Assembly: GCA_965230975.1 (NCBI GenBank)
Contig: OZ246402.1
Span: 711,228-775,227 of the forward strand
Reading direction: 5' to 3'
DNA from: an uncultured Candidatus Saccharibacteria bacterium
GTDB lineage: Bacteria > Patescibacteriota > Dojkabacteria > J137
DNA length: 64,000 bases
Part shown: positions 33,707 to 46,380 of the stretch, one piece after another
How the letters are laid out: every line of letters starts with the position of its first letter
How positions within the stretch are numbered: the stretch's first letter is position 1
Notes under the pieces: model-generated
Databases searched by the model: none
What the model saw: only the letters and a program-made list of their open reading frames with translations
What the model was told of the DNA's origin: nothing
Translations under genes and position numbers: made by a program

Positions 33707-34396
33707 TTATTGCAATTTATCTGTCTTATCCTTGAAAGTTTGAAAAACACTTACCCTATAAAGCTCAGCATTTCTTTCCATAACATCTAACCTATTTTTA
33801 AAGTCATAAATACTATATTTCTGAGAGGGTAGAAACTCATTACTTGAAACATTAAAATATTTTTTCAAAATATTATCGATTGTAAAAATATTAGCATAAT
33901 CATCGATAAAAGATGCTAATAATCTTACACTTAGCAAGTCTTTTAAACTTAAACTTTTTGGATCAATATTTGAGTTTATTGTATGCATAGCTAAATCAAG
34001 AATATACTTTATTTCTGCGTATGAAATATCATACCCAATATAGGCTAAAATCGCCCTAGATCTATCATTAAACGATCGTTCAATTTTTTGAATAGTAAAA
34101 TTCTCAATTTCGATTACCATTCTTTGATCAATATGATTTCTAACAAAATTGTCAAAAACACTAATGATTGATTTATCTATGTCTAGTAGATGGTCTCTTG
34201 GTATTTCATAACGAGTCTCTTTTAAGGGGTCATAGTATGTAAATTTGTCATTAGAGCTTAAAAACCCTATTCTTTGAATAAGTTTAGTGTTTTTACTTTG
34301 TCGCTTATTTAGTTGTGATAAAAGTCGCATGCGGTATTCGTTGGTAGGAGGTCTAGTTTCAGAAGTCCGTTTATTGAATAAGTTAAAGTTCAACAT
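33707..34396 (-). CDS. Hypothetical protein
   Basis: 229-aa ORF next to tRNA-Glu. Confidence 0.4.
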   Translation of the reverse strand: MLNFNLFNKRTSETRPPTNEYRMRLLSQLNKRQSKNTKLIQRIGFLSSNDKFTYYDPLKETRYEIPRDHLLDIDKSIISVFDNFVRNHIDQRMVIEIENFTIQKIERSFNDRSRAILAYIGYDISYAEIKYILDLAMHTINSNIDPKSLSLKDLLSVRLLASFIDDYANIFTIDNILKKYFNVSSNEFLPSQKYSIYDFKNRLDVMERNAELYRVSVFQTFKDKTDKLQ

Positions 34397-34498: not shown

Positions 34499-36208
34499 AT
34501 GGAAAATATTAAACAAGATCTTCTAGCATTTTTTGGAAATGAAAAAAATAGATTATTTATTTATATTCTCTTTGGATTTATTTCTTTAATTGTTATAAGT
34601 TCTGCAGTACTTCTAATATTATCTGTACCTAAAACTCCAAAACTCTCAAATGCAGAAGAAACAAAAGTTATAGATGAAATAATCAAAAATAACCCATCTG
34701 CTATTTTAGAAGAAACTATTAAAGATTCTAAAGATTCAAATGTACCTAATGAAAGTGCTCCATTTGGTACTCCAAGTCAAACTCCTGATCTTACTAAATA
34801 CAACTATAGAATCAGTGAATATAGCTATAAAACGGGGCCAGCTTATAAAGCTTGTAATTTAAATAATGGTAACTTTGAAGGCGGGCAAAACTCATCCTTA
34901 ATGAACTATTTTGATGGTAACTATAATTATACTTTTACAGAATATTTTGAAAAAAATCGTTCTGTTAACAAAAGCTACGTAACGTCTAATACATCTGGTC
35001 TGTTTCAAATAAATATATCAGATTATTCTAATATTCAATCACAATCTTATCAATATAATGGTGGAGAATATGCGATTAAAGCAATTTACGAACCTTACGA
35101 AGGCTATGTACAAGATGAGTACTTAAGTTACCCTGCATCTTATGCGAATCAATACTTAGATAACAGTTACTATACATTTATTGGAGAAGAAAAAATTGAT
35201 GGTAAAGATACTTACAAAATTCAAACAAATTATTATACTTTTTGTGATGGTAGCTACGGCTTGCTAAGTTCTGATTCTGAAAATGAAATACCTAATGCTG
35301 TAAAAATAGTAAATATAATTTATGCAGATAAAAATACCTACAGCATTCTAAGATATCAATCTTTCTTAAATGAGGTTAGTGACTCAAATCTTATAAGTAC
35401 TACAAATTCTTCTATAAAAACTTCATTAGTAAAGCTAGCAGATGTTAACGGAGAGTTTAAATTTAATTACAATGTTGCAGTTAAAATTATTGACTACACA
35501 GGTTACTGGGATTTGTTTAATGAAGATAATATTAAAAGTATATTTAAAAATTACTTAGCAACAAGTAATACTAGTCTTTTAAATGATAGTAGTTATGTTG
35601 TAAGTGGCATTTCAATACCAAGTGCATACCCTAAATTAGCAAACTCAGGATTTTTAACAGACAGAAAGTTTTACCCTACAAGTGTAGAAGGTGACGATTT
35701 TTACTTATATATGGTCACAAATAATAATATTAACCCAGAATCATCTATTAATCTTTATAGACGTGTTAACTTTGAGAGCTATGACTATATTAATTTAGAT
35801 ATTTACGATATCTCGGTTACTAAAGATGACCTTATTGCTTCACTTTTGCAAGATAAATACACTAGTTTTGAATCTTTTGAAGAAAAATTAATTATTGATT
35901 CAATAGAGGTTCCTGCAACTAAAATAAGTTTTGAATACAAGTACTTTGAAATACCTACTTCTTACACGTCAAGTAGCTCTTACCCTGCATCTTACCCATC
36001 CTATCACTGGACTTCAGATGTTTATGTCTTTAGCTTTAACAATCGGGTATACAAACTAACTTCATCTCAAGATGCAACAAGTTTAAATTTTAAATCTTAT
36101 AGTTCTAATAATCAGACAGAGTTAAATAACTTTTTTGATTTAATTGTGGGTTACAATTACTACTTTCCAACAAGTTATGCAAGCTATCCAGTAAGTTATA
36201 ATTGGTAA
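34499..36208 (+). CDS. Secreted/membrane-anchored Tyr/Ser/Asn-rich protein with YPASY-type C-terminal repeats
   Basis: N-terminal TM anchor. Low-complexity, Y/S/N-rich. The motifs YPASYANQY, SYPASYPSYHW and YASYPVSYNW recur. Confidence 0.5.
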   Translation: MENIKQDLLAFFGNEKNRLFIYILFGFISLIVISSAVLLILSVPKTPKLSNAEETKVIDEIIKNNPSAILEETIKDSKDSNVPNESAPFGTPSQTPDLTKYNYRISEYSYKTGPAYKACNLNNGNFEGGQNSSLMNYFDGNYNYTFTEYFEKNRSVNKSYVTSNTSGLFQINISDYSNIQSQSYQYNGGEYAIKAIYEPYEGYVQDEYLSYPASYANQYLDNSYYTFIGEEKIDGKDTYKIQTNYYTFCDGSYGLLSSDSENEIPNAVKIVNIIYADKNTYSILRYQSFLNEVSDSNLISTTNSSIKTSLVKLADVNGEFKFNYNVAVKIIDYTGYWDLFNEDNIKSIFKNYLATSNTSLLNDSSYVVSGISIPSAYPKLANSGFLTDRKFYPTSVEGDDFYLYMVTNNNINPESSINLYRRVNFESYDYINLDIYDISVTKDDLIASLLQDKYTSFESFEEKLIIDSIEVPATKISFEYKYFEIPTSYTSSSSYPASYPSYHWTSDVYVFSFNNRVYKLTSSQDATSLNFKSYSSNNQTELNNFFDLIVGYNYYFPTSYASYPVSYNW

Positions 36209-36261: not shown

Positions 36262-37623
36262 TTAAAAGCTTAAAGGAAATTTCTTAGCAAAAGATATTAC
36301 ATTCTTTTTGACATCTTTTATTCTTGAATCCTTACTTGCAAGTACATCAAATTGTGAAAAGTCTATGGATTTTGCTTTTAAATCTACTGCAATATCTGTT
36401 ACTTCGTTAATCCATTTAGCAACCTGCTTCATCTCTTTTTCCTTCATTCCTCTAGTTGTTAATGTTGGTGATCCAATCCTTAGGCCGCTTGGATTTAAAG
36501 GGGATCCAGATTCGTATGGTACTGTATTCATGTTGCTTATAATATTTGCATAGGCTAATGCTCTTGAAACATACTTACCTCCAATATCACGGCTTGATTT
36601 TAAATCTATTAAAACAAGGTGCTTATCTGTACCACCCGAGACAATTCTTAATCCGTAATTAGATAACTCAGTTGCAAGAACTTTTGCATTTTTTAATATT
36701 TGGCTACAATACTTTTTAAATTCTCGTGTGTCTGCTTCAAATAAAGCTTGTGTAATACCAGCAATAGTTCCGTTGTGTGGACCACCCTGCATGCCTGGCA
36801 TTACAGATTTATTAATTTTTTCAACAAATTCTTCTTTCATAAGTATCATGGCTCCCTTAGGGCCTCTTAAAGTTTTGTGAGTAGTCATTGTAACTACGTC
36901 TGCTATTCCAACTGGAGATTCAACTACACCTGATGCAATTAAACCTGCCTCGTGAGCTATATCAGAGAGGTAAATAGCACCAACTTTATCTGCAATCTTT
37001 CTGATTTTTTTGTAATCTATCCCTCTTGGGTATGCAGTCCCACCTGTAATAATCATTTTGGGCTTTTCTTCTATAGCTAGTTTTTCTATAAAGTCATAAT
37101 CAAAAACTTCGGTTTTAGAATCAGTTTTGTACTGAACAACATTAAAAATTTTAGATACTATACTTATTTTTACATTACCACCTCTATAAGTCATATTAGT
37201 TGCCATATCTTCTTTATCTTGTTCGGTTCTATCTTTAGTTGGAATATAACTCCAGCCATGCGATAAGTGACCTCCATCTGGCAAATACATGCTTAAGATT
37301 TTGTCACCTGGTTCTAATAAGGCATTGTAAACAGCCAGGTTTGCATTTGAACCTGCATATGGTTGTACATTTGCAGACCAACCTTTTGGTGCTTTAAATA
37401 CTTTTAAAGCCATTTCTATACAAAGATTTTCTAATTGATCTATAAATTCGTTACCTTCGTAGTATCTAGCACCAGGGTACCCTTCGGAATACTTATGCAT
37501 AAAAATACTTCCAACAGCTTCTCTAACTGCAGGGGACGTAAAGTTTTCAGATGGAATTAAGTCTAGTGTTTCTGATTGTCTTTTCTTTTCATTATCTAGG
37601 ATCTTCTTAATTTTAGGGTTCAT
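36262..37623 (-). CDS. glyA: Serine hydroxymethyltransferase
   Basis: N-terminus LIPSENFTSPAVREAVGS and the PLP-Lys region TTHKTLRGP. Confidence 0.9.
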   Translation of the reverse strand: MNPKIKKILDNEKKRQSETLDLIPSENFTSPAVREAVGSIFMHKYSEGYPGARYYEGNEFIDQLENLCIEMALKVFKAPKGWSANVQPYAGSNANLAVYNALLEPGDKILSMYLPDGGHLSHGWSYIPTKDRTEQDKEDMATNMTYRGGNVKISIVSKIFNVVQYKTDSKTEVFDYDFIEKLAIEEKPKMIITGGTAYPRGIDYKKIRKIADKVGAIYLSDIAHEAGLIASGVVESPVGIADVVTMTTHKTLRGPKGAMILMKEEFVEKINKSVMPGMQGGPHNGTIAGITQALFEADTREFKKYCSQILKNAKVLATELSNYGLRIVSGGTDKHLVLIDLKSSRDIGGKYVSRALAYANIISNMNTVPYESGSPLNPSGLRIGSPTLTTRGMKEKEMKQVAKWINEVTDIAVDLKAKSIDFSQFDVLASKDSRIKDVKKNVISFAKKFPLSF

Positions 37624-37767: not shown

Positions 37768-38712
37768 ATGGATGAGATTCTAAAATTGATTCTTGAAAAG
37801 TATCAATTTGATTTTATAAATATTGCCGCTGCTCAAAAAGGGTATAGAAATTCTTCATATTTAGTTACATGTAAGAATGGTGAGCTAATTAATTTGATTT
37901 TATATAAAAGGGAGCTTGGCATTTTGCAAAAAATTAAATCTGCAAATAAAGTTTCTTTAGAAATGCATAAATCTGGATTGCCTGTAAGATATCCAATAGG
38001 AAAAATATTAAGACTAACTGAAAATTACTACGCATGCATTTATAACTACCTTCCTGGGTCAACTATTCCTTGGGAATCTTACAGTATGGATCATTTAAAA
38101 TTGCTTGGTCAATATCTTAACAAAATACATTTTCATGGTAAAAATATGCCTTCACAAAACCTCGTTAAAGAGGCGGAAGTGCTTAAGGTGATACTTAGTA
38201 GGGTAGATAATTACTTTAAAAATGATAATGTTAAAGTTGCATTAAAAAATAAATTAAACATTGAAATAAATTTTGATAATCTCTTAAAACAATCAGAAAA
38301 GATTATCAATGATGTAGAAAGTTCAAATAAATCTACGATTTTACACATGGATTTTGTTCGTGGAAATATCTTGTTTGAATATAACCCAACAAGAATTTCA
38401 GGAATACTAGATTTTGAAAAAGCATCTTATGGTTCCCCATTATTTGATATTGCAAGAACAATGGCCTTTTTAATAGTAGATTGTAAATATAAATCTGAAG
38501 AAAAGATTAGAAAGTATTTTTTAAAGTCTGGATATATTAAGAATGGGAACTACAAATTTGATAGCTTTAAATACTTGAATGAACTTGTAGCACTATATTT
38601 AATTTATGATTTTTATAAGTTTTTAAAACATAACCCGTACGAATATTTGAACCAAAACGAGCATTTTAATAGAACAGTTAAAGTACTAAAAGATACAAGA
38701 CTTCTTCTATAG
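37768..38712 (+). CDS. APH/ChoK-family small-molecule kinase (protein-kinase-like fold)
   Basis: Brenner motif HMDFVRGNILF and the DFE metal-binding motif ILDFEKASYGSPLFDIA. Confidence 0.55.
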   Translation: MDEILKLILEKYQFDFINIAAAQKGYRNSSYLVTCKNGELINLILYKRELGILQKIKSANKVSLEMHKSGLPVRYPIGKILRLTENYYACIYNYLPGSTIPWESYSMDHLKLLGQYLNKIHFHGKNMPSQNLVKEAEVLKVILSRVDNYFKNDNVKVALKNKLNIEINFDNLLKQSEKIINDVESSNKSTILHMDFVRGNILFEYNPTRISGILDFEKASYGSPLFDIARTMAFLIVDCKYKSEEKIRKYFLKSGYIKNGNYKFDSFKYLNELVALYLIYDFYKFLKHNPYEYLNQNEHFNRTVKVLKDTRLLL

Positions 38713-38780
38713 GGTTTATCGACAGTCTACGCCTTTTACTTTAGAATATATTTCTAGTAATTACCTTTTACCCACTTTTT

Positions 38781-39335
38781 ATGGCTTCTGCATGGAAAAA
38801 ACGTCTTATAGATCAAAGCGATTTAATGACTTTAAACGAAAAATTGAAAGAGAAAGATAAGAAAATTGTCTTTACTGCAGGTAGTTGGGATTTATTGCAT
38901 GTTGGGCAGTGCAGATATTTAGAAGAGGCAAAAAGCAAGGGTGATATTTTAGTGGTTGGGGTAAGTTCTAACGAGGCTATTAGAAAGGTTAAAGGGCCAA
39001 ATAAACCAATTTTAGACGAAAAGATCAGAGCAGAGATGCTTACTTATTTAAGATCTGTTGATTTTGTAACCATATTACCAGAACCATCTTGCCAGCCAAC
39101 TTTAGGTTTACTAAAGCCAGATGTTTATGTAACTGTAAAAGAAGATTGGACAAGTGAATATAAAGAATCAAAAGAATATAAAACAGTAGTTAAATACGGA
39201 GGGGAAGTTTTAGTTGTAGATAGGCAATCAACAAAATTATCTACTACAAAGATTATTCAAAGAGCAATTGGTGGCCATTTAGGTGAGATTTTTAAAGATT
39301 TTATGGAACTTAGAAAAGACCCTTTAAAAGAGTAA
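38781..39335 (+). CDS. Cytidylyltransferase-like nucleotidyltransferase (RfaE domain II / heptose-1-P adenylyltransferase-like)
   Basis: VFTAGSWDLLHVGQCRYLEEAKSKGDILVVGVSSNEAIRKVKGPNKP matches the HxGH-type nucleotidyltransferase signature closely. Confidence 0.6.
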   Translation: MASAWKKRLIDQSDLMTLNEKLKEKDKKIVFTAGSWDLLHVGQCRYLEEAKSKGDILVVGVSSNEAIRKVKGPNKPILDEKIRAEMLTYLRSVDFVTILPEPSCQPTLGLLKPDVYVTVKEDWTSEYKESKEYKTVVKYGGEVLVVDRQSTKLSTTKIIQRAIGGHLGEIFKDFMELRKDPLKE

Positions 39336-39336
39336 T

Positions 39337-40350
39337 ATGTCTAACGAAAAGCAGGTAAACAAAGTCACATCACATTTAACTGAAGATGAAAAGCAACAGC
39401 TATATAAAAATGCACGGGCAAAAGATTGGTATGGTGGTATTTGGCAGAATGTTGGCAAATGTGTTTTTTGCGATCTAAAAGATAAATACATTCTTCACGA
39501 AGAAAACGGTGTTGTTTTGACAATAAACCTTTACCCTTACATTGATGGACAGATGATGGTTATCCCAAGAAAGCATGTTTCCTCGCCAAAAGAGTTAACA
39601 GATTTAGAATGGGAAACGATGCGTAAGTTATCTTACCTTGGTAAAAAGTTAATTAAAAAAGTTCATGGTCATAAAGCGATGTGGAACTTAATAAGAGAAG
39701 GGGGAGAAGCAGGTCAAATGACTGTAAGTGACCATTTGCATATGCAATTAATTCCTTTTGATGCAAAAGATTTATGTAACTGGAATTTCAGAGAATTGAA
39801 ATATACTCCCTTAGAGAATGTTCAAATGTATAAAGACCAAGCAAAGGAATTTATTGAAGATAAATATAAATTTGAAAAAAAATATGGTGCAAGTGTTAGT
39901 TTGCCAGTAGTTTGTGATGTAATAATCCAAAATAAAGAGGGTAAGTTCTTATTTCAAGAAAGAAAGCCAGAATATAAATTTCATCCAGATTATTTGACCT
40001 TACCAGGTGGTCATGTAAATGATTTTACTAAACCTTTTGAAGAAAACTTAAAGCGAGAAGTTTTTGAAGAGACTGGTTTGAAAATCAAAGAGACGGACTT
40101 AAAACTTCTCGCGTCCAGAGTGTCCAGTTTAAACTATGTCTCTAAGTCTATTCATTTGAATAAGAAAATTGCTACCTATAAACAATTTGTTTGGAACACA
40201 TACTTACTTAACTATTCTGTTGATGAGACTAAACTAATACCCGGTGATGATTGCGAAAGCTTTGTATGGTTGAGTTTAGATGATATTAGAAACAATAAAA
40301 GAGTTTCTGAAGCTTTACAGACAACATTTATTCAACATTTTTCAAAATGA
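39337..40350 (+). CDS. HIT(HINT-like)-NUDIX fusion protein
   Basis: N-terminal half: CVFCDL ... GQMTVSDHLHMQLIP, i.e. the HIT histidine triad. C-terminal half: NUDIX box LPGGHVNDFTKPFEENLKREVFEETGL. Confidence 0.6.
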   Translation: MSNEKQVNKVTSHLTEDEKQQLYKNARAKDWYGGIWQNVGKCVFCDLKDKYILHEENGVVLTINLYPYIDGQMMVIPRKHVSSPKELTDLEWETMRKLSYLGKKLIKKVHGHKAMWNLIREGGEAGQMTVSDHLHMQLIPFDAKDLCNWNFRELKYTPLENVQMYKDQAKEFIEDKYKFEKKYGASVSLPVVCDVIIQNKEGKFLFQERKPEYKFHPDYLTLPGGHVNDFTKPFEENLKREVFEETGLKIKETDLKLLASRVSSLNYVSKSIHLNKKIATYKQFVWNTYLLNYSVDETKLIPGDDCESFVWLSLDDIRNNKRVSEALQTTFIQHFSK

Positions 40351-41282
40351 AAAGTTACGATTGGAATAAAATTTCAAATGAGAAAAAGGAGGAATTATCA
40401 AAGTTAAAACCTATATTTATACAAGGTTCTAGAGATATATCTACCAAAAAGATAGCACAGCTAGCAAAGTTAGCTGAAAAGAGAAAATTAATTTGGGGTG
40501 TTTTAAAAGATGAATACATTAATGGTTTGGAAGGAAGTATTCAGTTTAAAACCCTATCTAAGAAAGTTATAGAAGAAACTTTAGAAGAGAGTAAAAATGT
40601 CTATTTACTAGAATATTATCAAAGAGATTTAAAACACATTTTTAAAGAGTTAGATTTTTCCTTAGTTATATTGATTAATGGATCTTGGCATAAAGCAATT
40701 CATTTCAACCCAGAAATTTGGCAATTAATTAACAAGAAAACAGAATATAAATTAATAAGCCCATTTGTAAACGAATTAGAAGCAAAAGAGTATGCAGAAA
40801 AGATAGTCCTAGAGTATTCAGCTAGAACGATTTTTGAAGAAAATAAAATCTACACAGATAAAGAGATTTTTGAAATTTTGAAAGAGGAGTCTAAAAGATC
40901 ATTTGATTGGAACTATCAAATTGCCAGTGCACTTGTTAACGATGGAAAAGTATTACTAACTGCTCATAATACAGTGATACCATACGAGACATACAGTGCA
41001 CATTTTGGATCAGAACGTGAGAAATACTATGTAGCACCAGGCGATTCAAATTTTTACGATACAAATCACGCAGAGGTCGAATTAATCTTAAAATCAAACA
41101 AAGAAAAAATTGATTTATTAGGTACATCAATTTACTTGAATGTTTTACCATGCCCAACTTGTTCTCGTATGCTTTTAAGGAGTGGTATACAAGAGATAGT
41201 ATATTCTCAAGATCATTCTGATGGTTATGCTATAAAAATGTTTGAAATGGCAGGTAAAACTGTCCGCAGATTTATTCCTTAA
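40347..41282 (+). CDS. dCMP/cytidine deaminase-fold protein with ~170-aa N-terminal extension
   Basis: C-terminal zinc motifs HAEVELI and LPCPTCSRML. The N-terminal domain is unassigned. Confidence 0.6.
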   Translation: MKSYDWNKISNEKKEELSKLKPIFIQGSRDISTKKIAQLAKLAEKRKLIWGVLKDEYINGLEGSIQFKTLSKKVIEETLEESKNVYLLEYYQRDLKHIFKELDFSLVILINGSWHKAIHFNPEIWQLINKKTEYKLISPFVNELEAKEYAEKIVLEYSARTIFEENKIYTDKEIFEILKEESKRSFDWNYQIASALVNDGKVLLTAHNTVIPYETYSAHFGSEREKYYVAPGDSNFYDTNHAEVELILKSNKEKIDLLGTSIYLNVLPCPTCSRMLLRSGIQEIVYSQDHSDGYAIKMFEMAGKTVRRFIP

Positions 41283-41322
41283 ACTATAAAAATTTTAGAA
41301 CTTTAACTATTAACTACAAAAT

Positions 41323-42186
41323 ATGACACATCCAGAACTTCAATATTTAAAGTTAATGTATTCTATCTTAAAGGATGGAAAGGGTAAGAAAACAAGAGGT
41401 ATTCATGGTGTTAGATCTATGTTTGGGTATCAAATGAAGTTTGATTTAAGACATGGATTCCCCTTACTAACAACCAAAAAGATGCCTTTTAAAATGCTAG
41501 TGAATGAGTTGCTTTGGTTTATTTCTGGAGATACTAATATTAAAAAATTAAATGAAAACAAGATATTTTATTGGGACGGTTTTGCAGATGAAAATGGTGA
41601 TTTAGGTCCAGTTTATGGTTCTCAATGGAGAAAGTGGCCAACTTTTGTAGATTCTAGAACAGGTAAAAGTGCAAATGCGCAAACGCCTAAAGAATTTTTA
41701 CAATACAAAGAGATAGATCAACTTCAAAATATTATTGAAGAGATTAAAACAATGCCTAATTCTAAAGCTATGATAGTCACAGCACACAATCCAGCTCAGT
41801 TATCAGAAATGCGTTTGCCACCATGCCATGCTTTCTTTCAATTTAATGTTACAAAAGAGAAGTTAAAGTTGCAGTTGTATCAAAGAAGTTCAGATGTATT
41901 TTTAGGTTTACCATTTAATATTGCTCAGTATGCTTTATTGTTGATGATGGTTGGGCAGGTTACTGGTTACGAGGCCAGAGAGCTTGTTGTGACTATTGGA
42001 GATGGTCATATTTATTATAACCATTTTGATGCAGCAAAAGAGCAGTTAAAAAGAAAGCCATTTGCTTTCCCTAAGGTCAAATTAAATCCAGATGTTAAAA
42101 ATATTGATGATTTTAAGCTAGAAGACTTTACTTTAGAGAATTATGAGTCTCACGAGGCTATTAAAGCTCCGTTAGTTATTATTTAA
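41323..42186 (+). CDS. thyA: Thymidylate synthase (ThyA type)
   Basis: Canonical ThyA motifs: N-terminal LVNELLWFISGDTN, and LPPCHAFFQFNV carrying the catalytic Cys. Confidence 0.85.
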   Translation: MTHPELQYLKLMYSILKDGKGKKTRGIHGVRSMFGYQMKFDLRHGFPLLTTKKMPFKMLVNELLWFISGDTNIKKLNENKIFYWDGFADENGDLGPVYGSQWRKWPTFVDSRTGKSANAQTPKEFLQYKEIDQLQNIIEEIKTMPNSKAMIVTAHNPAQLSEMRLPPCHAFFQFNVTKEKLKLQLYQRSSDVFLGLPFNIAQYALLLMMVGQVTGYEARELVVTIGDGHIYYNHFDAAKEQLKRKPFAFPKVKLNPDVKNIDDFKLEDFTLENYESHEAIKAPLVII

Positions 42187-43303
42187 CTAAGGATTTATAA
42201 ACTTCTAAATGTTCTTTGCACATTCTCTCAATTGAGAATCTTTGCTCAAATACTTTCCTACAGCTTTCTCTATTTATTGAGACTATGTTTTTTATCGCTT
42301 TAACTAAAGTATCAACAGCATCTATATCATTTTCAACTAATAATCCAGTTTTACCTTCATCTATTACCTCAGGAATTGCACCAGCTTTAATTCCAATAAC
42401 TGGAGTACCACAAGCTAAAGCTTCAATCATAACCATTCCAAAAGGTTCCTCCCATGTTGAAGGCACAATAAGTGCTTTGGCATTACCTAAAAATTCTTGC
42501 TTTTCAGAATTCTCTTTAAGGTAACCGACATACTTAATTTGCTTACCGTCAACGAATGGTTCAATCTTTTCAGACCAATACTTATCTTTAGCATAATCAG
42601 AATAATGTTTACCAGCAATTCTAAGTTCAACTCCAGCTTTTATTGCTGCATCTATAGCTAAATGAACACCCTTGGGTTCTATAATTCTGCCAAAATATGC
42701 AAAATAATCTTTTGAAGGGTTTTTTAAAGGGACAAATTTATTAACATCCATTCCATGGTAAATAGTCCGTAGGAAATTTGTCCCGGTTGGCATGCTTTTT
42801 CTTTGAGAACTTGAAATTGAAATCCAGTTTAAGTGCTTATATTTAGGCATAATGCTCCTGTATTTTGCGGAGAAATTGAAAGGTTCGTGGTGTGTAAAAA
42901 CTAGAGGTTTTTTGCAAAAATCAGCAAAAACCAAAGCTAACTCTTCCTCGTTAGTATAAACATGAACAATGTCAAATTCATTATTATTTGCTCTTTGAAA
43001 AGCGTCTTTAATAATCTCTGATTGAACTTGTCTTGCCATATTAATAAATACTAGTGGGTGTTTTTTTAAGAGTTCTATGTAAGAATCTTTTCTGAATTCA
43101 AGTTCTTTTTCAAACAAAGATAAATCTGCACTAATATTTTTTACCGAAGTATTTACCTTTCCTGGCGTAAAAAGAGTAACAACATGACCAAGTTTTTGAA
43201 GTCCCTCAGCTAAATCTAATGCTAAATATCCCGGGGAGAAAATAACATCAGGTAGTATCTCCTGATTCATGAATATATGAGGAACAACAATTGCTATTTT
43301 CAT
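42179..43303 (-). CDS. Glycosyltransferase family 4 (GT-B)
   Basis: EPFGMVMIEALACGTPVI...G motif. Confidence 0.8.
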   Translation of the reverse strand: MKIAIVVPHIFMNQEILPDVIFSPGYLALDLAEGLQKLGHVVTLFTPGKVNTSVKNISADLSLFEKELEFRKDSYIELLKKHPLVFINMARQVQSEIIKDAFQRANNNEFDIVHVYTNEEELALVFADFCKKPLVFTHHEPFNFSAKYRSIMPKYKHLNWISISSSQRKSMPTGTNFLRTIYHGMDVNKFVPLKNPSKDYFAYFGRIIEPKGVHLAIDAAIKAGVELRIAGKHYSDYAKDKYWSEKIEPFVDGKQIKYVGYLKENSEKQEFLGNAKALIVPSTWEEPFGMVMIEALACGTPVIGIKAGAIPEVIDEGKTGLLVENDIDAVDTLVKAIKNIVSINRESCRKVFEQRFSIERMCKEHLEVYKSLVK

Positions 43304-43332
43304 TAGTAAATTGAGAGTTTTAACAAAGAGAA

Positions 43333-43521
43333 TTACTCCTCTTTATCTTCTTCGTCATCCAAAAAGCTTAAGTCTAAATCATCCATGCTTGTATCTAAAT
43401 CTTCGTCAAAATATCCATCTGCTTCATTTTCAGACTCATCCTGTTTATCAAGATTAAGCATTGGATCATCTAATAATTCATCATCTTTCTTTACTGGGTT
43501 TGTGTTTGCTGTATTGCTCAT
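43333..43521 (-). CDS. Small highly acidic hypothetical protein (62 aa)
   Basis: D/E-rich with no hydrophobic core. Co-oriented with the GT4 gene immediately upstream of it. Coding status uncertain. Confidence 0.3.
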   Translation of the reverse strand: MSNTANTNPVKKDDELLDDPMLNLDKQDESENEADGYFDEDLDTSMDDLDLSFLDDEEDKEE

Positions 43522-43578
43522 AAATAGAAAAATAATTAGTGTATAATAATTTGATTTCTAAATATTACCACTAAAAAT

Positions 43579-44115
43579 ATGATTAGCATAATTGTTGCCA
43601 TGGCAAAAAATAGAGTTATTGGGAATAAAAATCAGATCCCTTGGCACATTTCAGAAGATTTAACTCACTTTAATAATGTAACTAGTGGTCACCCTGTAAT
43701 TATGGGTGTTAAGACTCACGAATCAATTTCTGGTTTTGAACCTGGCAAAGGTTGGGACCCTACAAAGCCATTAGTGCATAAATTGCTTCCAAGAAGAACT
43801 AATATTATTGTTAACGATCAAGGTAATTATGAGGTACCTGGTGGAATTGTTGTAACAAATTTAGATGATGCTATTAAGGCTGCTAAAGAATCTGAGGGTG
43901 GTGATGAGATGTTTATTATTGGTGGTGCAATGATGTACGAATCTACAATTGGAATGGCAGATAAGCTTTATATTACAATGATTGATGCAGAGGTTGAAGG
44001 TGATAGATACTTTCCAGAAATCCCAGCAGAATTTAAATTGGTAGAAGATAAGAAAAGAATATGTAGGTTAAATGATGTTGAGATTAGATATAGTTTTCAA
44101 GTTTATCAAAAATAA
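43579..44115 (+). CDS. folA: Dihydrofolate reductase
   Basis: MISIIVAMAKNRVIGNKNQIPW...FIIGGA matches DHFR. Confidence 0.85.
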   Translation: MISIIVAMAKNRVIGNKNQIPWHISEDLTHFNNVTSGHPVIMGVKTHESISGFEPGKGWDPTKPLVHKLLPRRTNIIVNDQGNYEVPGGIVVTNLDDAIKAAKESEGGDEMFIIGGAMMYESTIGMADKLYITMIDAEVEGDRYFPEIPAEFKLVEDKKRICRLNDVEIRYSFQVYQK

Positions 44116-44562
44116 ATGCTGTCTGAACAATCTTTAAAACAATTAATTGCAGATAAGCAACTATTGATAGAAGGATCTAGTGACATTTTAAAAGGAAATG
44201 CAATAAAACTTCATTTAGGAGCTATATGCAAAAGATTAACTTCTGAAATAGTCGATATAAAATCTTTAGAGGATGCTGAGTACGAAGAGGTAGATATATC
44301 TTCGGGATACGATTTGAAACCGAATGAATTTCTATTAGCTTACACATTGGAGAAAGTAACAATGCCAAAAGGTTATATGGGTTGGATTGAAACTCGTGGT
44401 AGCTTAGCAAATATTGGCTTTCAAGTTCATTTTTGTGATGCTCATATAGACCCTGAATCCTCTTTGCATATTGCTTTGCAAATAAAAAACAACTCAAATT
44501 CAATAATAAGAATTTCCCTGAAGGAATACATTGCAAAGATGTATGTAGAAAGATTAGTGTAA
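44116..44562 (+). CDS. dCTP deaminase/dUTPase-family protein (short Dcd-like)
   Basis: IKLHLG and YMGWIETRGSLANIGFQVH...AHIDP parallel Dcd VDLRLG ... GWLDGRSSLARLGLMVH...HRIDPG. Confidence 0.6.
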   Translation: MLSEQSLKQLIADKQLLIEGSSDILKGNAIKLHLGAICKRLTSEIVDIKSLEDAEYEEVDISSGYDLKPNEFLLAYTLEKVTMPKGYMGWIETRGSLANIGFQVHFCDAHIDPESSLHIALQIKNNSNSIIRISLKEYIAKMYVERLV

Positions 44563-44629: not shown

Positions 44630-44714
44630 ATGTTAGTGGGTGAAAGTCCCTTCTCCAGTATAGAATAAAATCGAAACCGGGAACTAACATTTTAAAGCAC
44701 CTATTCGGTGCTTT
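44630..44714 (+). ncRNA. Candidate small RNA (~85 nt) ending in an intrinsic terminator
   Basis: Sits between the promoter and terminator AAAGCACC-tattc-GGTGCTTT+TTTATTT. Internal helices: GTTAGT...ACTAAC, plus CCC pairing with either of two GGG runs. Confidence 0.35.
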
Positions 44715-45096
44715 ATTTATCCTTTAACATAACACTTAAGAAAGTATATTTATAGTTTTCAATTCGTTCAATAACTATCCTTATAGTATGCTTGTTATCT
44801 ATTATATATATTAAAGAGTAGTGCTTAACTTTGTGTGAGTGTTTAGATAATTTATACTCTATTATTCTAATTTGCTCAATCTCTTTGCTGTCATTTATTG
44901 CCTTTACTACATATTTTAGAAGTGAGAGTTTTAATATCTGTTCATTAATGCTCCTATCCTTTCTATTAGAATCATAAATCAAATGATTAAACCCTTTAGA
45001 AGTAAAATAAACCCATCTCTTTAAAGCAGGAGAATAAACTCTTCCTATTTTTTTATAAAATTTACGGTATTCTTTTCTCTCGTAATACAAATTCAT
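44713..45096 (-). CDS. Hypothetical Lys-rich protein
   Basis: 127-aa ORF, divergent from the recombinase gene. Confidence 0.35.
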   Translation of the reverse strand: MNLYYERKEYRKFYKKIGRVYSPALKRWVYFTSKGFNHLIYDSNRKDRSINEQILKLSLLKYVVKAINDSKEIEQIRIIEYKLSKHSHKVKHYSLIYIIDNKHTIRIVIERIENYKYTFLSVMLKDK

Positions 45097-45162: not shown

Positions 45163-46380
45163 ATGGATATAGAATCTGATGTAATAACTCAAACCAGCTC
45201 TAAAAAACTCAACCCGTACTCCTTACCATATCTAAGAGAGTACCTTTCTAACCTGAAAAATAATAACTATTCCCGAGAGACACTAGAAAACTACGCACGA
45301 GATTTAGAAATATTTAGCGCATTTTTGTATTATTTAGAGGTCCCATTTGAAAAGATAGAAAAGCTAACTATCAGTGAATTTAAAGGTTTTTTAAGAGAAC
45401 AAAACTATATACCAATACTGCATAAATACCAAGCAGGATATGAACTTACAGAAGCAGATGTAGCTAAAAGCAAAACAGATGTATCTGAAGTAAAAAAAGC
45501 TATGTATAGAGGACAACTATCGGATGCAAGTGTAAATAGAATGCTTTCTGCATTACGTTCTTACCTAACATTTTTAGTAGATAATGATAAACCAATTCCA
45601 ATACCTCCAACTGCTATTAAAATGATCAAGGCAGAAAAGAAAGAAAAGCAGGTTGCAGAACTAAATGAACTTATTCAACTTATTGAATGCCCATTAGAAT
45701 ACGAAGATGAAATTATTGTTCAAAAAAGAAATAGAGCGATTTTAGAACTTATATTTTCAACAGGAATGAGAATTTCTGAAGTAGTAAATCTTAATCGCGA
45801 CCAAATTAAAATGATTAATGGCAGAATATCTGACGATAGAATTTATATAGTAGGTAAAGGAAAAAAACAAAGGTTTGTTTATTTAACACCTAGGGCAATA
45901 GAAAGACTTCAAGAATATTTAGATGATAGAGTCGATGATTACCCAGCTATGTTTATCCCAACTAGAGGAACTAGAAAAGCAACTGAAAACCCTTATATTG
46001 TAAGACTTTCTCAAAACTATATTCAAATGAAAATCGCCTACTACCGAAGAAAACTGGGGATAATTGTCCCAACATCTGCACATAGTTTGCGTCACGGGTT
46101 TGCAACATATATTGCAGAAGAAGGTGCAAACCCTGCAGCAATTCAAAAATTATTGGGGCACTCTTCATTGCAAACTACATCTAAATACGTACATGCGTCT
46201 GATAAATTTGCAGAAAAGGCTCATAGAGATTTTCACCCACTGCAAACAGATGAAGATGACCAAAAAATCCAAGATGATAAAGTTAACAATGTAGAACCTG
46301 AAGCCGAAAATCAACATGAGTCTAAAAATCAAACTGACTTTGAGCCTTCAATTGAAAGTTTAGATACTTTTGCAAGCTAA
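45163..46380 (+). CDS. Tyrosine site-specific recombinase (XerC/XerD-like) with acidic C-terminal extension
   Basis: N-terminal SAM-like core-binding domain. Catalytic R...HxxR...Y: LRHGFATY...LLGHSSLQTTSKYVH. About 70 extra C-terminal residues, D/E-rich. Confidence 0.8.
   Translation: MDIESDVITQTSSKKLNPYSLPYLREYLSNLKNNNYSRETLENYARDLEIFSAFLYYLEVPFEKIEKLTISEFKGFLREQNYIPILHKYQAGYELTEADVAKSKTDVSEVKKAMYRGQLSDASVNRMLSALRSYLTFLVDNDKPIPIPPTAIKMIKAEKKEKQVAELNELIQLIECPLEYEDEIIVQKRNRAILELIFSTGMRISEVVNLNRDQIKMINGRISDDRIYIVGKGKKQRFVYLTPRAIERLQEYLDDRVDDYPAMFIPTRGTRKATENPYIVRLSQNYIQMKIAYYRRKLGIIVPTSAHSLRHGFATYIAEEGANPAAIQKLLGHSSLQTTSKYVHASDKFAEKAHRDFHPLQTDEDDQKIQDDKVNNVEPEAENQHESKNQTDFEPSIESLDTFAS

What the first reader, a model, noticed from the sequence alone, without database searches (positions are those of the whole stretch)
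37768..44562. Co-directional nucleotide-metabolism block: kinase, nucleotidyltransferase, HIT-NUDIX, extended dCMP deaminase, thyA, then folA and a Dcd-like gene
Seven nucleotide-handling genes sit within 6.8 kb. Only thyA and folA are canonical. The block lists an APH-like kinase, an RfaE-II-like nucleotidyltransferase, a HIT-NUDIX fusion, a deaminase with an unknown 170-aa N-domain, thyA, folA and a short Dcd-like gene. It echoes the kinase, transferase and pyrimidine-C5-enzyme gene sets that phages and some bacteria use to hypermodify deoxypyrimidines. The alternative is a salvage and dTMP-synthesis operon for an auxotrophic symbiont. Either way the operon logic is not a described one.
Basis: partly seen in the sequence, partly recalled or inferred. 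Interest (0 to 1): 0.55.

Follow-up and report, generated by a model that had tools for sequence, protein, structure and literature searches.

The report
Conserved thymidylate operon with unknown enzymes

Summary
All seven domain calls are confirmed by Pfam and NCBIfam, and the block sits in a cellular Patescibacteria genome whose nearest named relatives are Dojkabacteria.

The neighbourhood is strongly conserved. Of 68 species-level loci with enough flank, 67 carry kinase, NTase, HIT(±NUDIX) and N-domain+dCMP deaminase in this order. A convergent ThyA/GT4 pair lies beside them in 62 of 63 loci that have both genes.

HIT is fused to the deaminase in some Saccharimonadales.

ThyA is canonical. 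L143, C146 and N177 are invariant in 64 orthologues, so C5 hypermodification is not supported.

The 170-aa N-domain is lineage-restricted and has a Rossmann, nucleotidyltransferase-like fold (best match HldC). The GT4 resembles glucosylsucrose synthase. The Dcd-like gene has Gln in place of the catalytic Glu and is not part of the conserved set.

Best model (inferred, not shown): one collinear line in which the kinase makes X-P, the NTase makes (d)CDP-X, HIT/NUDIX release dCMP, the deaminase makes dUMP and ThyA makes dTMP.

Main rival: a Leloir-like sugar-nucleotide module that merely shares the operon.

I rate it a new variant of a known kind, of moderate to high interest.

The parts
36262..37623 (-). 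glyA (serine hydroxymethyltransferase). It is transcribed divergently from the operon and supplies 5,10-methylene-THF.
   Evidence: Pfam SHMT 484 bits and NCBIfam PRK00011 494 bits, above the 335 cutoff. A terminator-like hairpin lies at 36244-36228. SHMT is adjacent in only a few related loci (L038, L057, L064).
37768..38712 (+). APH-fold small-molecule kinase of unknown substrate; first gene of the conserved core.
38781..39335 (+). HIGH-family nucleotidyltransferase (RfaE-II/HldC- and ECT-like) with a variant H-x-G-Q motif.
   Evidence: NCBIfam rfaE_dom_II 122 bits, below the 181.5 cutoff. PDB sequence hits are human ECT 3elb at 5e-15, HldC 5x9q at 1e-12, and TagD. The motifs TAGSWDLLHVGQ and RQSxxxSTT are conserved at 90% or more across 80 orthologues. 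The stop codon lies 1 nt before the HIT start.
39337..39861 (+). HIT domain, the N-terminal half of the HIT-NUDIX protein.
   Evidence: Pfam HIT and DcpS_C. PDB hits include the Ap4A phosphorylase Rv2613c 3ano at 1e-7. By profile, 6af2, a HinT-like protein and Rv2613c all score about 1e-10. The motif is H133-x-H135-x-[H in 66, Q in 17] and the CxxC is invariant; the window has HLHMQ. The domain is fused to the N-domain deaminase in L004, L005, L022, L064 and L075.
39862..40350 (+). NUDIX domain, the C-terminal half of the HIT-NUDIX protein; an accessory element.
   Evidence: Pfam NUDIX 50.4 bits, aa 192-322, with the REVFEETGL box. It is present in only 19 of 82 related loci.
40347..40856 (+). 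N-domain of the deaminase (aa 1-170): a lineage-restricted Rossmann, nucleotidyltransferase-like domain without a HxGH motif.
40857..41282 (+). dCMP deaminase domain.
41323..42186 (+). thyA, a canonical thymidylate synthase.
   Evidence: NCBIfam equivalog 357.6 bits, above the 327 cutoff. It scores 308 bits to PDB thymidylate synthase 6auj. L143, C146, H147, R166, D169 and N177 are invariant in 64 orthologues.
42179..43303 (-). GT4 glycosyltransferase (TeGSS-like), convergent with thyA and overlapping it by 8 nt; a conserved member of the cluster.
   Evidence: Pfam Glycos_transf_1 97.5 bits. PDB 7fg9/8x3q, the glucosylsucrose synthase TeGSS, matches at 3e-54 over aa 32-372. BH4 glucosyltransferase matches at 1e-26 over the C-terminal half only. 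The pair is convergent with ThyA in 62 of 63 loci, abutting in 43 and overlapping in 31. In L021 and L059 the gene is co-directional with the kinase and overlaps it by 4 nt.
43333..43521 (-). 62-aa highly acidic ORF upstream of the GT4; doubtful as a gene.
   Evidence: ORF list. It has no homologue in the 85 loci at E<1e-5. A small ORF lies in the same position in L001.
43579..44115 (+). folA (dihydrofolate reductase).
   Evidence: Pfam DHFR_1 155 bits. A DHFR/RibD_C-type gene accompanies the cluster in 58 loci.
44116..44562 (+). Short Dcd-like gene, abutting folA. It is probably not an active dCTP deaminase.
   Evidence: Pfam DCD 72.7 bits and NCBIfam dCTP_deam 77.7 bits, below the 92.8 cutoff. 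The alignment to E. coli Dcd puts Gln at the catalytic E138 position (window 'ALQIKN' against 'VLEFYN'), and the C-terminal lid is missing. It is absent from all 85 related loci. A terminator-like hairpin lies at 44693-44715.
   Evidence: Pfam THF_DHG_CYH and THF_DHG_CYH_C.

Best explanation
SHOWN. The block is a cellular operon that is conserved across the lineage (Saccharimonadia and Dojkabacteria). It is built around the ordinary thymidylate line: dCMP deaminase makes dUMP, canonical ThyA makes dTMP, and folA, glyA and folD recycle the folate. Four further enzymes are always clustered with it: an APH-fold kinase, a HIGH-family nucleotidyltransferase, a HIT protein (with or without NUDIX) and a TeGSS-like GT4. 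The deaminase always carries an N-terminal nucleotidyltransferase-like domain that occurs essentially nowhere else.

INFERRED working model. The gene order is the pathway order.
1. The kinase phosphorylates a small hydroxyl compound X. X may be a glucoside made by the GT4.
2. The NTase joins X-P to (d)CTP, giving (d)CDP-X.
3. HIT, and NUDIX where present, cleave the pyrophosphate bond and release (d)CMP.
4. The (d)CMP passes directly to the deaminase.
5. The degenerate NTase-like N-domain docks the deaminase onto the NTase/HIT pair or senses their nucleotide. The precedent is the tandem active and degenerate CT domains of ECT, which I recall from my own knowledge.

The net effect would be a controlled route from cytidine nucleotides to dUMP and dTMP that avoids free dUTP. 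No modified base is made.
For: Conservation:
- 67 of 68 loci with enough flank have kinase, NTase and HIT on the same strand upstream of the N-domain deaminase.
- The cluster keeps together in different genomic contexts. In Saccharimonadales it lies between rplA and rplJ; in the window it lies next to glyA.
- It also stays together after internal reshuffling, as in L021 and L059, where the kinase has moved next to the GT4.

Physical links:
- HIT is fused to the N-domain deaminase in at least 5 species representatives, and in P0144, P0152, P0171 and P0239.
- A partial N-domain fused to NUDIX occurs in L020.
- The junctions NTase/HIT and HIT/deaminase abut or overlap by 1-4 nt in the window and in the loci examined: L002, L004 and L005.

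Inserted accessory genes are deoxynucleotide enzymes:
- dUTPase_2 in L001.
- A nucleoside-deoxyribosyltransferase-like gene between the NTase and HIT in L001, L028 and L037.
- A Tmk fusion protein in 34 loci.

Chemistry:
- HIT hydrolases and NUDIX enzymes both release an NMP from NMP-P-X (established family knowledge).
- The deaminase domain is structurally a dCMP deaminase with an intact Zn site.
- The NTase's best solved relative is CTP-dependent ECT.
- The N-domain has an HldC-like fold.
- ThyA is canonical.
Against: - No substrate is known for the kinase, the NTase, HIT or the GT4.
- The route is roundabout compared with a simple dCTP pyrophosphatase or with Dcd plus Dut, and I know of no precedent for it.
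- NCBIfam places the NTase nearest to sugar-1-phosphate adenylyltransferases, not cytidylyltransferases.
- The kinase's second-best structural neighbour is the anomeric sugar kinase NahK.
- The GT4 is a UDP-glucose-type enzyme. Together these three fit a sugar-nucleotide module just as well.
- The HIT branch (hydrolase or phosphorylase) cannot be assigned.
- Fusions of abutting operon genes can be neutral, and some come from error-prone MAG assemblies (L082).
Confidence: 0.4

Rival explanations
1. Two modules share one operon. The kinase, NTase, HIT/NUDIX and GT4 form a Leloir-like sugar salvage and activation set. The steps would be: an anomeric sugar kinase; a sugar-1-P nucleotidyltransferase; a HIT enzyme acting as a GalT-type or ADP-glucose-phosphorylase-type nucleotidyl exchanger; a NUDIX NDP-sugar hydrolase; and a GT4 that consumes the NDP-sugar to make a glucoside or envelope glycoconjugate. 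The thymidylate genes are neighbours only for co-expression with growth. At most they are coupled in regulation, with the N-domain sensing the NDP-sugar.
For: - The NTase's best NCBIfam and PHROG hits are heptose-1-P adenylyltransferase.
- The GT4 matches the UDP-Glc:sucrose glucosyltransferase TeGSS over its full length at 3e-54.
- The kinase and GT4 overlap by 4 nt in L021 and L059.
- Precedents, from my own knowledge: the Bifidobacterium lnpABCD operon pairs the APH-fold NahK with a HIT-superfamily GalT; the mycobacterial operon Rv2613c (HIT)-pgsA1-Rv2611c-pimA (GT4)-Rv2609c (NUDIX) combines the same three families. Rv2613c is among the closest solved relatives of this HIT.
- In Saccharimonadales the cluster sits among ribosomal-protein genes, a growth-linked locus.
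Against: - It does not explain why HIT is repeatedly fused to the deaminase.
- It does not explain why the deaminase universally carries an NTase-like domain.
- It does not explain why dUTPase and NDT-like genes are inserted between the NTase and HIT.
- It does not explain why the set stays glued to the deaminase and ThyA in two candidate phyla with otherwise different contexts.
- The HIT is a single small domain, not the double-HIT GalT architecture.
Confidence: 0.3
2. Deoxynucleoside salvage line. The kinase is a deoxynucleoside (dC/dU/dT) or deoxyribose kinase of a non-standard fold. The NTase plus HIT act as a relay that raises dNMPs to dNDP or dNTP, or interconverts them, through a pyrophosphate-linked adenylylated intermediate. 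The deaminase, ThyA and Tmk complete the supply of dTTP from scavenged host DNA.
For: - Every identifiable accessory gene in the cluster handles deoxynucleotides: dUTPase_2, the NDT-like gene, the Tmk fusion, DHFR and SHMT.
- dTMP synthesis is noted as part of the minimal repertoire of Patescibacteria (PMC12455944).
Against: - I know of no APH-fold nucleoside kinase.
- CcrZ is a distant structural neighbour compared with the amino-alcohol and sugar kinases.
- The NTase/HIT relay has no precedent.
- The GT4 is left unexplained.
Confidence: 0.12
3. Pterin or folate cofactor tailoring or salvage. The GT4 glycosylates a pterin, and the kinase, NTase and NUDIX process a pterin side chain or its phosphate esters. 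This would supply the C1 carrier used by ThyA, DHFR and SHMT.
For: - The GT4's second family of solved relatives is UDP-glucose:tetrahydrobiopterin glucosyltransferase, at 1e-26.
- In L062, L070 and L007 a 522-541 aa protein made of an MtrA-like domain, an archaeal-type thymidylate synthase domain and a PterinBD-DUF4346 domain replaces ThyA. In L062 and L070 it fills the ThyA slot directly; in L007 it lies about 2.6 kb downstream.
- NUDIX enzymes include dihydroneopterin-triphosphate pyrophosphatase (own knowledge).
- The cluster is rich in folate enzymes.
Against: - The similarity to BH4 glucosyltransferase covers only the donor-binding C-terminal half, whereas the TeGSS match is full length and much stronger.
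- I found no pterin-biosynthesis genes in the roughly 30 kb scanned around the block.
- It does not explain the HIT-deaminase fusions.
Confidence: 0.06
4. One reading: the set hypermodifies a deoxypyrimidine, at the nucleotide level or in DNA, as phage kinase, transferase and ThyA-homologue sets do.
For: - The gene-family mix (kinase, NTase, ThyA family, GT) superficially resembles phage clusters.
- A phage GT whose best structural match is the same 7fg9/8x3q appears in a predicted cytosine-glycosylation cluster of Rhizobium phage RL38J1 (PMC13326640).
Against: - ThyA has L143 and N177, not the D/E and D substitutions of hydroxymethylases and hydroxylases, in all 64 orthologues. It also passes the thymidylate-synthase equivalog cutoff.
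- There is no second ThyA homologue in the block.
- The kinase and the N-domain deaminase have no relatives in IMG/VR viral contigs.
- The kinase has no PHROG hit, and PADLOC gave only two weak partial hits.
- The cluster is universal in a cellular lineage and sits among housekeeping genes.
Confidence: 0.04

Closest known systems
Classical thymidylate cycle operons (thyA-folA, with dCMP deaminase/ComEB, glyA, folD)
   Same: ThyA, DHFR, SHMT, FolD and a Zn-dependent dCMP deaminase domain are all present and look catalytically intact.
   Different: The deaminase carries a unique 170-aa NTase-like N-domain. Four further enzymes of unknown substrate are invariant members of the cluster.
Kennedy-type activation pair (choline/ethanolamine kinase plus CCT/ECT cytidylyltransferase)
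   Same: The two folds occur in the same order: an APH/choline-kinase-like kinase followed by a HIGH-family cytidylyltransferase-like enzyme. ECT is the NTase's best solved relative. ECT itself pairs an active and a degenerate CT domain (own knowledge), as the NTase and N-domain might.
   Different: There is no CDP-alcohol phosphotransferase in the cluster. The NTase has H-x-G-Q instead of H-x-G-H. NCBIfam places it nearer to HldC. The context is deoxynucleotide, not lipid.
Leloir-like and LNB/GNB sugar salvage (NahK plus the GalT-type HIT transferase of Bifidobacterium lnpABCD) and ADP-glucose phosphorylase or pyrophosphatase
   Same: An APH-fold kinase occurs together with a HIT-superfamily enzyme, a NUDIX and a glycosyltransferase. 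NahK is a close structural neighbour. The window's HIT has the H-x-H-x-Q variant, typical of the transferase and phosphorylase branch (branch rule from own knowledge).
   Different: Most orthologues have H-x-H-x-H (66 of 83). The HIT is a single small domain. The set is fused and interleaved with dCMP deaminase and ThyA.
Mycobacterial HIT Rv2613c (Ap4A phosphorylase) and its operon with pimA (GT4) and Rv2609c (NUDIX)
   Same: Rv2613c is among the closest solved relatives of the HIT domain. The same HIT+GT4+NUDIX family combination occurs in one operon (own knowledge).
   Different: The similarity is weak (about 1e-7 to 1e-10). The GT4 here is TeGSS-like, not PimA-like: 187 bits against 34 bits.
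Phage pyrimidine hypermodification clusters (T4 gp42/gp1/glucosyltransferases; RB69 and DLP3 5-hydroxy-dCMP synthase with arabinosyltransferases)
   Same: ThyA-family enzyme, kinase and glycosyltransferase are co-located. A 7fg9-like GT is reported in one such phage.
   Different: ThyA here is a canonical methylase by every diagnostic residue. The kinase is APH-fold, not a dNMP or P-loop kinase. The locus is cellular housekeeping.
Glucosylsucrose synthase TeGSS (PDB 7fg9) and pteridine glucosyltransferase BGluT
   Same: The GT4 aligns with TeGSS over both domains at 3e-54, which suggests a UDP-glucose donor and a small-molecule acceptor.
   Different: The acceptor is unknown. The match to BGluT is confined to the donor-binding half.

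Membership tests
Thymidylate synthase ThyA (dUMP methylase) | Score above the curated equivalog cutoff. | tested here: met
   NF002497 scores 357.6 bits against a 327 cutoff. The protein scores 308 bits to PDB thymidylate synthase 6auj.
Thymidylate synthase ThyA (dUMP methylase) | Catalytic Cys146. Asn177 for dUMP rather than dCMP. Leu143 to exclude water, where hydroxymethylases and hydroxylases have D/E143 and D177. | tested here: met
   L143, C146, H147, R166, D169 and N177 are invariant in the window and 63 orthologues. The rule is taken from PMC13326640.
dCMP deaminase (CDA-fold, Zn-dependent) | H-A-E and P-C-x-x-C zinc and catalytic motifs, and the closest fold being solved dCMP deaminases. 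| tested here: met
dCMP deaminase (CDA-fold, Zn-dependent) | Canonical allosteric G-Y-N-G loop for dCTP and dTTP (recalled from my own knowledge). | tested here: inconclusive
   Only the Asn (N208) is invariant, and the flanking glycines are absent ('TAHNTV'). Whether regulation has moved to the N-domain is untested.
HIGH-motif nucleotidyltransferase (HldC/TagD/ECT) - the NTase gene | The GxFDxxHxGH motif and the RTxGISTT-type C-terminal motif. | tested here: inconclusive
   The fold-family hit is clear. The STT motif is present. The second His is Gln (HVGQ), conserved in at least 90% of 80 orthologues. The protein scores below the rfaE_dom_II and TagD cutoffs.
HIGH-motif nucleotidyltransferase - the deaminase N-domain | The HxGH motif and detectable sequence homology. 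| tested here: not met
HIT superfamily | The histidine-triad motif H-phi-H-phi-H-phi-phi. Branch III transferases and phosphorylases have H-x-H-x-Q. | tested here: met
   H133 and H135 are invariant. The third position is H in 66 and Q in 17 of 83 sequences, and the window has Q. Superfamily membership is met. The branch, and therefore whether the enzyme is a hydrolase or a phosphorylase, is not assignable.
NUDIX hydrolase | The Nudix box GX5EX7REUXEEXGU. | tested here: inconclusive
   The REVFEETGL core is present and Pfam gives 50.4 bits. The spacing upstream of RE deviates from the consensus, as read from the sequence. No substrate-class signature was recognised.
dCTP deaminase (Dcd) | The catalytic Glu (E138 in E. 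coli) and the C-terminal lid; score above the equivalog cutoff. | tested here: not met
   Gln aligns with E138. The protein ends at residue 148, where E. coli Dcd has 193. TIGR02274 scores 77.7 bits, below the 92.8 cutoff. I therefore do not file it as a dCTP deaminase. It may be an archaeal-type Dcd-like dUTPase or a binding protein, which is inference.
Phage-type deoxypyrimidine hypermodification system | A ThyA homologue with altered specificity residues, or a DNA-acting kinase or transferase; phage or defence context. | tested here: not met
APH-fold small-molecule kinase | The Brenner motif HxDxxxxN, a DFE/DFG Mg site, the beta3 Lys and the APH fold. | tested here: met

The most novel reading that the evidence does not exclude
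Saccharimonadia and Dojkabacteria make their dUMP and dTMP through a previously undescribed multi-enzyme line. A cytidine deoxynucleotide is first parked on a small phosphorylated carrier by a kinase and an H-x-G-Q nucleotidyltransferase. A HIT or NUDIX enzyme then releases it. It is channelled into a dCMP deaminase that is tethered or regulated through a lineage-specific pseudo-nucleotidyltransferase domain. This would be a new piece of core nucleotide biochemistry, specific to ultra-small symbionts.
Probability: 0.27. Interest if true: 0.75.

Novelty: new variant of a known kind. Interest (0 to 1): 0.58.

Why it matters
Patescibacteria (the candidate phyla radiation) cannot make nucleotides de novo. 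How they balance DNA precursors is a central open point in understanding their dependence on hosts.

The cluster recurred in nearly every related Saccharimonadia/Dojkabacteria locus that the search recovered, and two relatives come from complete genomes of about 1.2-1.5 Mb. So its four uncharacterised enzymes and the orphan N-domain are probably important, not accessory.

If the enzymes feed or control dCMP deamination, this is a new route in central deoxynucleotide metabolism. It would also be a lineage-specific target, for example against oral Saccharibacteria.

If they instead form a sugar-nucleotide module, the fusion to the deaminase would show a direct coupling between envelope synthesis and the supply of DNA precursors.

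Either way, the finding gives precise, testable functional hypotheses for several families now annotated only as 'phosphotransferase', 'HIT family protein', 'NUDIX domain-containing protein' and 'deaminase'.

Tried and rejected
1. Hypermodification through a ThyA homologue. Rejected on the diagnostic residues and the equivalog score.
2. Phage or defence origin. The kinase and the N-domain deaminase have no IMG/VR relatives. The kinase has no PHROG hit, and the other PHROG hits are generic families. PADLOC gave only weak partial hits to NUDIX and deaminase.
3. The N-domain as a diverged copy of the neighbouring NTase. hhalign gives a probability of 4%, with only a shared 'GSW' tripeptide in a different topological position. 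A PDB profile search found nothing. Only fold-level similarity remains.
4. Assigning the HIT to the hydrolase or the phosphorylase branch. The third motif position varies between H and Q among orthologues and does not correlate with the presence of NUDIX. The profile search ties HinT-like proteins with Ap4A phosphorylase.
6. NrdR-box regulation. No box was found beyond chance. The promoter scan showed no enrichment.
7. Literature. Seven full-text searches found no description of the cluster.
8. Archaeal RibL-type FAD synthetase for the NTase. The only hit is RibF_rel at 16 bits, so I dropped the idea.
9. A pterin link for the GT4. I kept it only as a minor rival, because the BGluT match is confined to the donor domain.
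10. The NT+HIT fusion in L082. I discounted it because that locus carries frameshifted duplicate copies.

Full report
**Setting.** The window has about 31% G+C. It carries scattered tRNA genes and housekeeping genes: a two-component system, HtrA, Pth, the RNase P protein, GatC and FtsW. It is therefore a cellular chromosome. Identical copies of the HIT-NUDIX and deaminase proteins are on record from an NCBI contig of 1,193,217 bp. Their homologues come from Candidatus Dojkabacteria, Saccharimonadales and other Patescibacteria.

**Observation.**
- The five genes from the kinase to thyA are co-directional. They are separated by 68, 1, -4 and 40 nt.
- folA and the Dcd-like gene abut each other.
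- glyA lies upstream and is divergent. folD lies 3 kb downstream. Together they complete the thymidylate and folate cycle.
- Terminator-like hairpins occur only after glyA and after the Dcd-like gene.

**Neighbourhood conservation.**
- I used an alignment of 60 N-domain deaminases to scan one genome per GTDB species, which returned 80 loci. I searched their ORFs with the window proteins.
- Of 68 loci with at least 2.6 kb upstream, all 68 have the NTase and HIT, and 67 also have the kinase, on the same strand upstream of the deaminase.
- Of 63 loci with both ThyA and GT4, 62 have them convergent. They abut in 43 and their 3' ends overlap in 31.
- A DHFR gene accompanies the cluster in 58 loci. 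A thymidylate-kinase fusion protein accompanies it in 34.
- The genomic context differs between lineages. In Saccharimonadales the cluster is wedged between rplA and rplJ. In the window it lies next to glyA.
- In L021 and L059 the kinase has moved to follow the deaminase and overlaps the GT4 by 4 nt. The set thus stays together through rearrangement. That argues for selection on clustering, not frozen synteny.
- NCBI taxonomy lists Dojkabacteria and Saccharimonadota as separate candidate phyla.

**Fusions and variants.**
- HIT is fused to the N-domain deaminase in several Saccharimonadales: P0144, P0152, P0171 and P0239, and loci L004, L005, L022, L064 and L075.
- The NUDIX half is present in only 19 of 82 loci, so it is accessory.
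- L020 has an extra chimera of a partial N-domain with NUDIX.
- Genes found inserted inside the cluster are a dimeric dUTPase (L001) and a weak nucleoside-2-deoxyribosyltransferase-like gene. The latter lies between the NTase and HIT in L001, L028 and L037.

**The individual proteins.**
- **ThyA** is canonical. It scores above the equivalog cutoff and reaches 308 bits to a solved thymidylate synthase. It keeps L143, C146, H147, R166, D169 and N177 in all 64 sequences. These are the positions that change in dCMP hydroxymethylases and 5-hydroxy-dCMP synthases (PMC13326640).
- The N-domain has no Pfam hit. It has no sequence relative in the PDB. It shows no detectable homology to the neighbouring NTase.
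- It has only 67 relatives among 1.84 billion representatives. Most of them have the length of an N-domain deaminase.
- Conserved R29, S32 and R35 follow the strand at residues 23-25, which I infer is where HxGH would lie. This suggests a phosphate or nucleotide site.
- **The NTase** is nearest to heptose-1-P adenylyltransferase by NCBIfam and to human ECT and HldC by PDB sequence search. It has a conserved H-x-G-Q in place of H-x-G-H.
- **The kinase** model (pLDDT 95.6) is an intact APH-fold small-molecule kinase. Its neighbours act on homoserine, N-acetylhexosamine, antibiotics, aminopropanol, methylthioribose and choline. The substrate cannot be inferred.
- **The HIT domain** keeps the first two histidines and a CxxC. 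The third motif position is H in 66 and Q in 17 sequences, and the window has Q. It is equally close to HinT-like hydrolases and to the mycobacterial Ap4A phosphorylase.
- **The GT4** matches glucosylsucrose synthase TeGSS (7fg9) over its full length at 3e-54. It matches BH4 glucosyltransferase only in the donor half.
- **The Dcd-like protein** has Gln at the catalytic Glu position and lacks the C-terminal lid. It is below the equivalog cutoff and absent from all related loci.

**Interpretation.**
- What is shown is a conserved thymidylate-supply operon with four invariant extra enzymes and an orphan domain.
- I favour a single collinear pathway, in gene order: kinase, NTase, HIT/NUDIX, deaminase, ThyA. 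The first three enzymes would build and then cleave an NMP-P-X conjugate, most simply (d)CDP-X. That would hand (d)CMP to the deaminase.
- The NTase-like N-domain would dock onto the NTase or sense its nucleotide. The analogy is the tandem active and degenerate CT domains of ECT, which I recall from my own knowledge.
- Four observations favour this model: the HIT-deaminase fusions, the abutting or overlapping NTase-HIT-deaminase junctions, the deoxynucleotide enzymes inserted between the NTase and HIT, and the fact that both HIT hydrolases and NUDIX enzymes release NMPs.
- The weaknesses are real. No substrate is known, the route is indirect, and I know of no precedent for it.
- The main rival is that the kinase, NTase, HIT/NUDIX and GT4 form a Leloir-like sugar-nucleotide module that is only co-resident with the thymidylate genes. 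In its favour are the NahK-like kinase fold, the HldC-like NTase and the UDP-glucose-type GT4. Precedents, from my own knowledge, are NahK with GalT in Bifidobacterium and Rv2613c-pimA-Rv2609c in mycobacteria.
- That rival explains the GT4 well. It does not explain the fusions or the N-domain.
- Deoxynucleoside salvage by a non-standard kinase, and pterin-cofactor tailoring, are minor rivals.
- Phage-style hypermodification is not supported.

**Novelty.** Seven full-text searches found no description of this cluster. The literature only notes that thyA and folA belong to the minimal repertoire of these bacteria. I class the finding as a new variant of a known kind. It is a thymidylate operon with an undescribed, invariant accessory module and an orphan domain on the deaminase.

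Noticed in passing
window 44116-44562 (+): The Dcd-like protein has Gln where E. coli Dcd has the catalytic Glu138. It also has Asn where Dcd has Arg115, and it ends at 148 aa without the C-terminal lid. It may be an archaeal-type Dcd-like dUTPase or a non-catalytic nucleotide binder. It is not found next to the cluster in any related locus.
   Followed up: partly
L062 9964-11532; L070 6941-8509; L007 12542-14167: Three relatives lack ThyA and carry instead a 522-541 aa protein that combines an MtrA-like domain, an archaeal-type thymidylate synthase domain and a PterinBD-DUF4346 domain. In L062 and L070 it fills the slot between the deaminase and the GT4. In L007 it lies about 2.6 kb downstream and no GT4 was detected. 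This unusual thymidylate synthase architecture hints at a different pterin carrier.
   Followed up: partly
L002 10813-12633; L005 11937-14357; L017 10530-12446 (34 loci in all): Thymidylate kinase is fused to a C-terminal extension of 400-600 aa, which in L005 hits Pfam Thy1 (ThyX). It lies just downstream of the cluster in many Saccharimonadia.
   Followed up: partly
L004 and L005 (whole loci); L017, L079: In Saccharimonadales the whole cluster is inserted between rplK-rplA and rplJ-rplL, inside the otherwise highly conserved secE-nusG-rplKAJL region.
   Followed up: no
L001 7592-7984; L028 966-1385; L037 6940-7380: A 130-145 aa gene with weak similarity to nucleoside 2-deoxyribosyltransferase/DNPH1 (23.6 bits, below the 28.8 cutoff) lies between the NTase and HIT in three loci. 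L001 also has a dimeric dUTPase (PF08761) there.
   Followed up: partly
window 41323-42186 (aa ~108-128 of ThyA): The window's ThyA carries an insertion of about 18 residues relative to solved bacterial thymidylate synthases (alignment to 6auj). Its significance is unknown.
   Followed up: no
window 43333-43521 (-): A 62-aa extremely acidic ORF (rich in D and E) lies directly upstream of the GT4. A small ORF occupies the same position in L001, but no sequence homologue was detected in the other loci.
   Followed up: partly
L082 801-2969 and 6310-8409: One Microflora Danica MAG carries two copies of the NTase-HIT-deaminase segment. One copy is frameshifted into pieces. The other has an apparent NTase+HIT fusion and decayed deaminase fragments. 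This could be a duplication with pseudogenisation, or an assembly or long-read error.
   Followed up: partly
window 34499-36208 (+) and 33707-34396 (-): A 569-aa protein rich in Ser, Tyr and Asn, with an N-terminal membrane anchor, and a 229-aa protein both lack any Pfam hit. They lie just upstream of glyA. The larger one is probably a lineage-specific surface protein.
   Followed up: no
window 45163-46380 (+): A tyrosine recombinase (Phage_integrase plus a SAM-like N-domain) with a long acidic C-terminal tail sits 600 nt downstream of the Dcd-like gene. No other sign of a mobile element was seen around the block.
   Followed up: no
L001 9028-9408: A 126-aa four-helix-bundle protein of the 23S_rRNA_IVP/bAvd type is inserted between HIT-NUDIX and the deaminase in one relative.
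   Followed up: no
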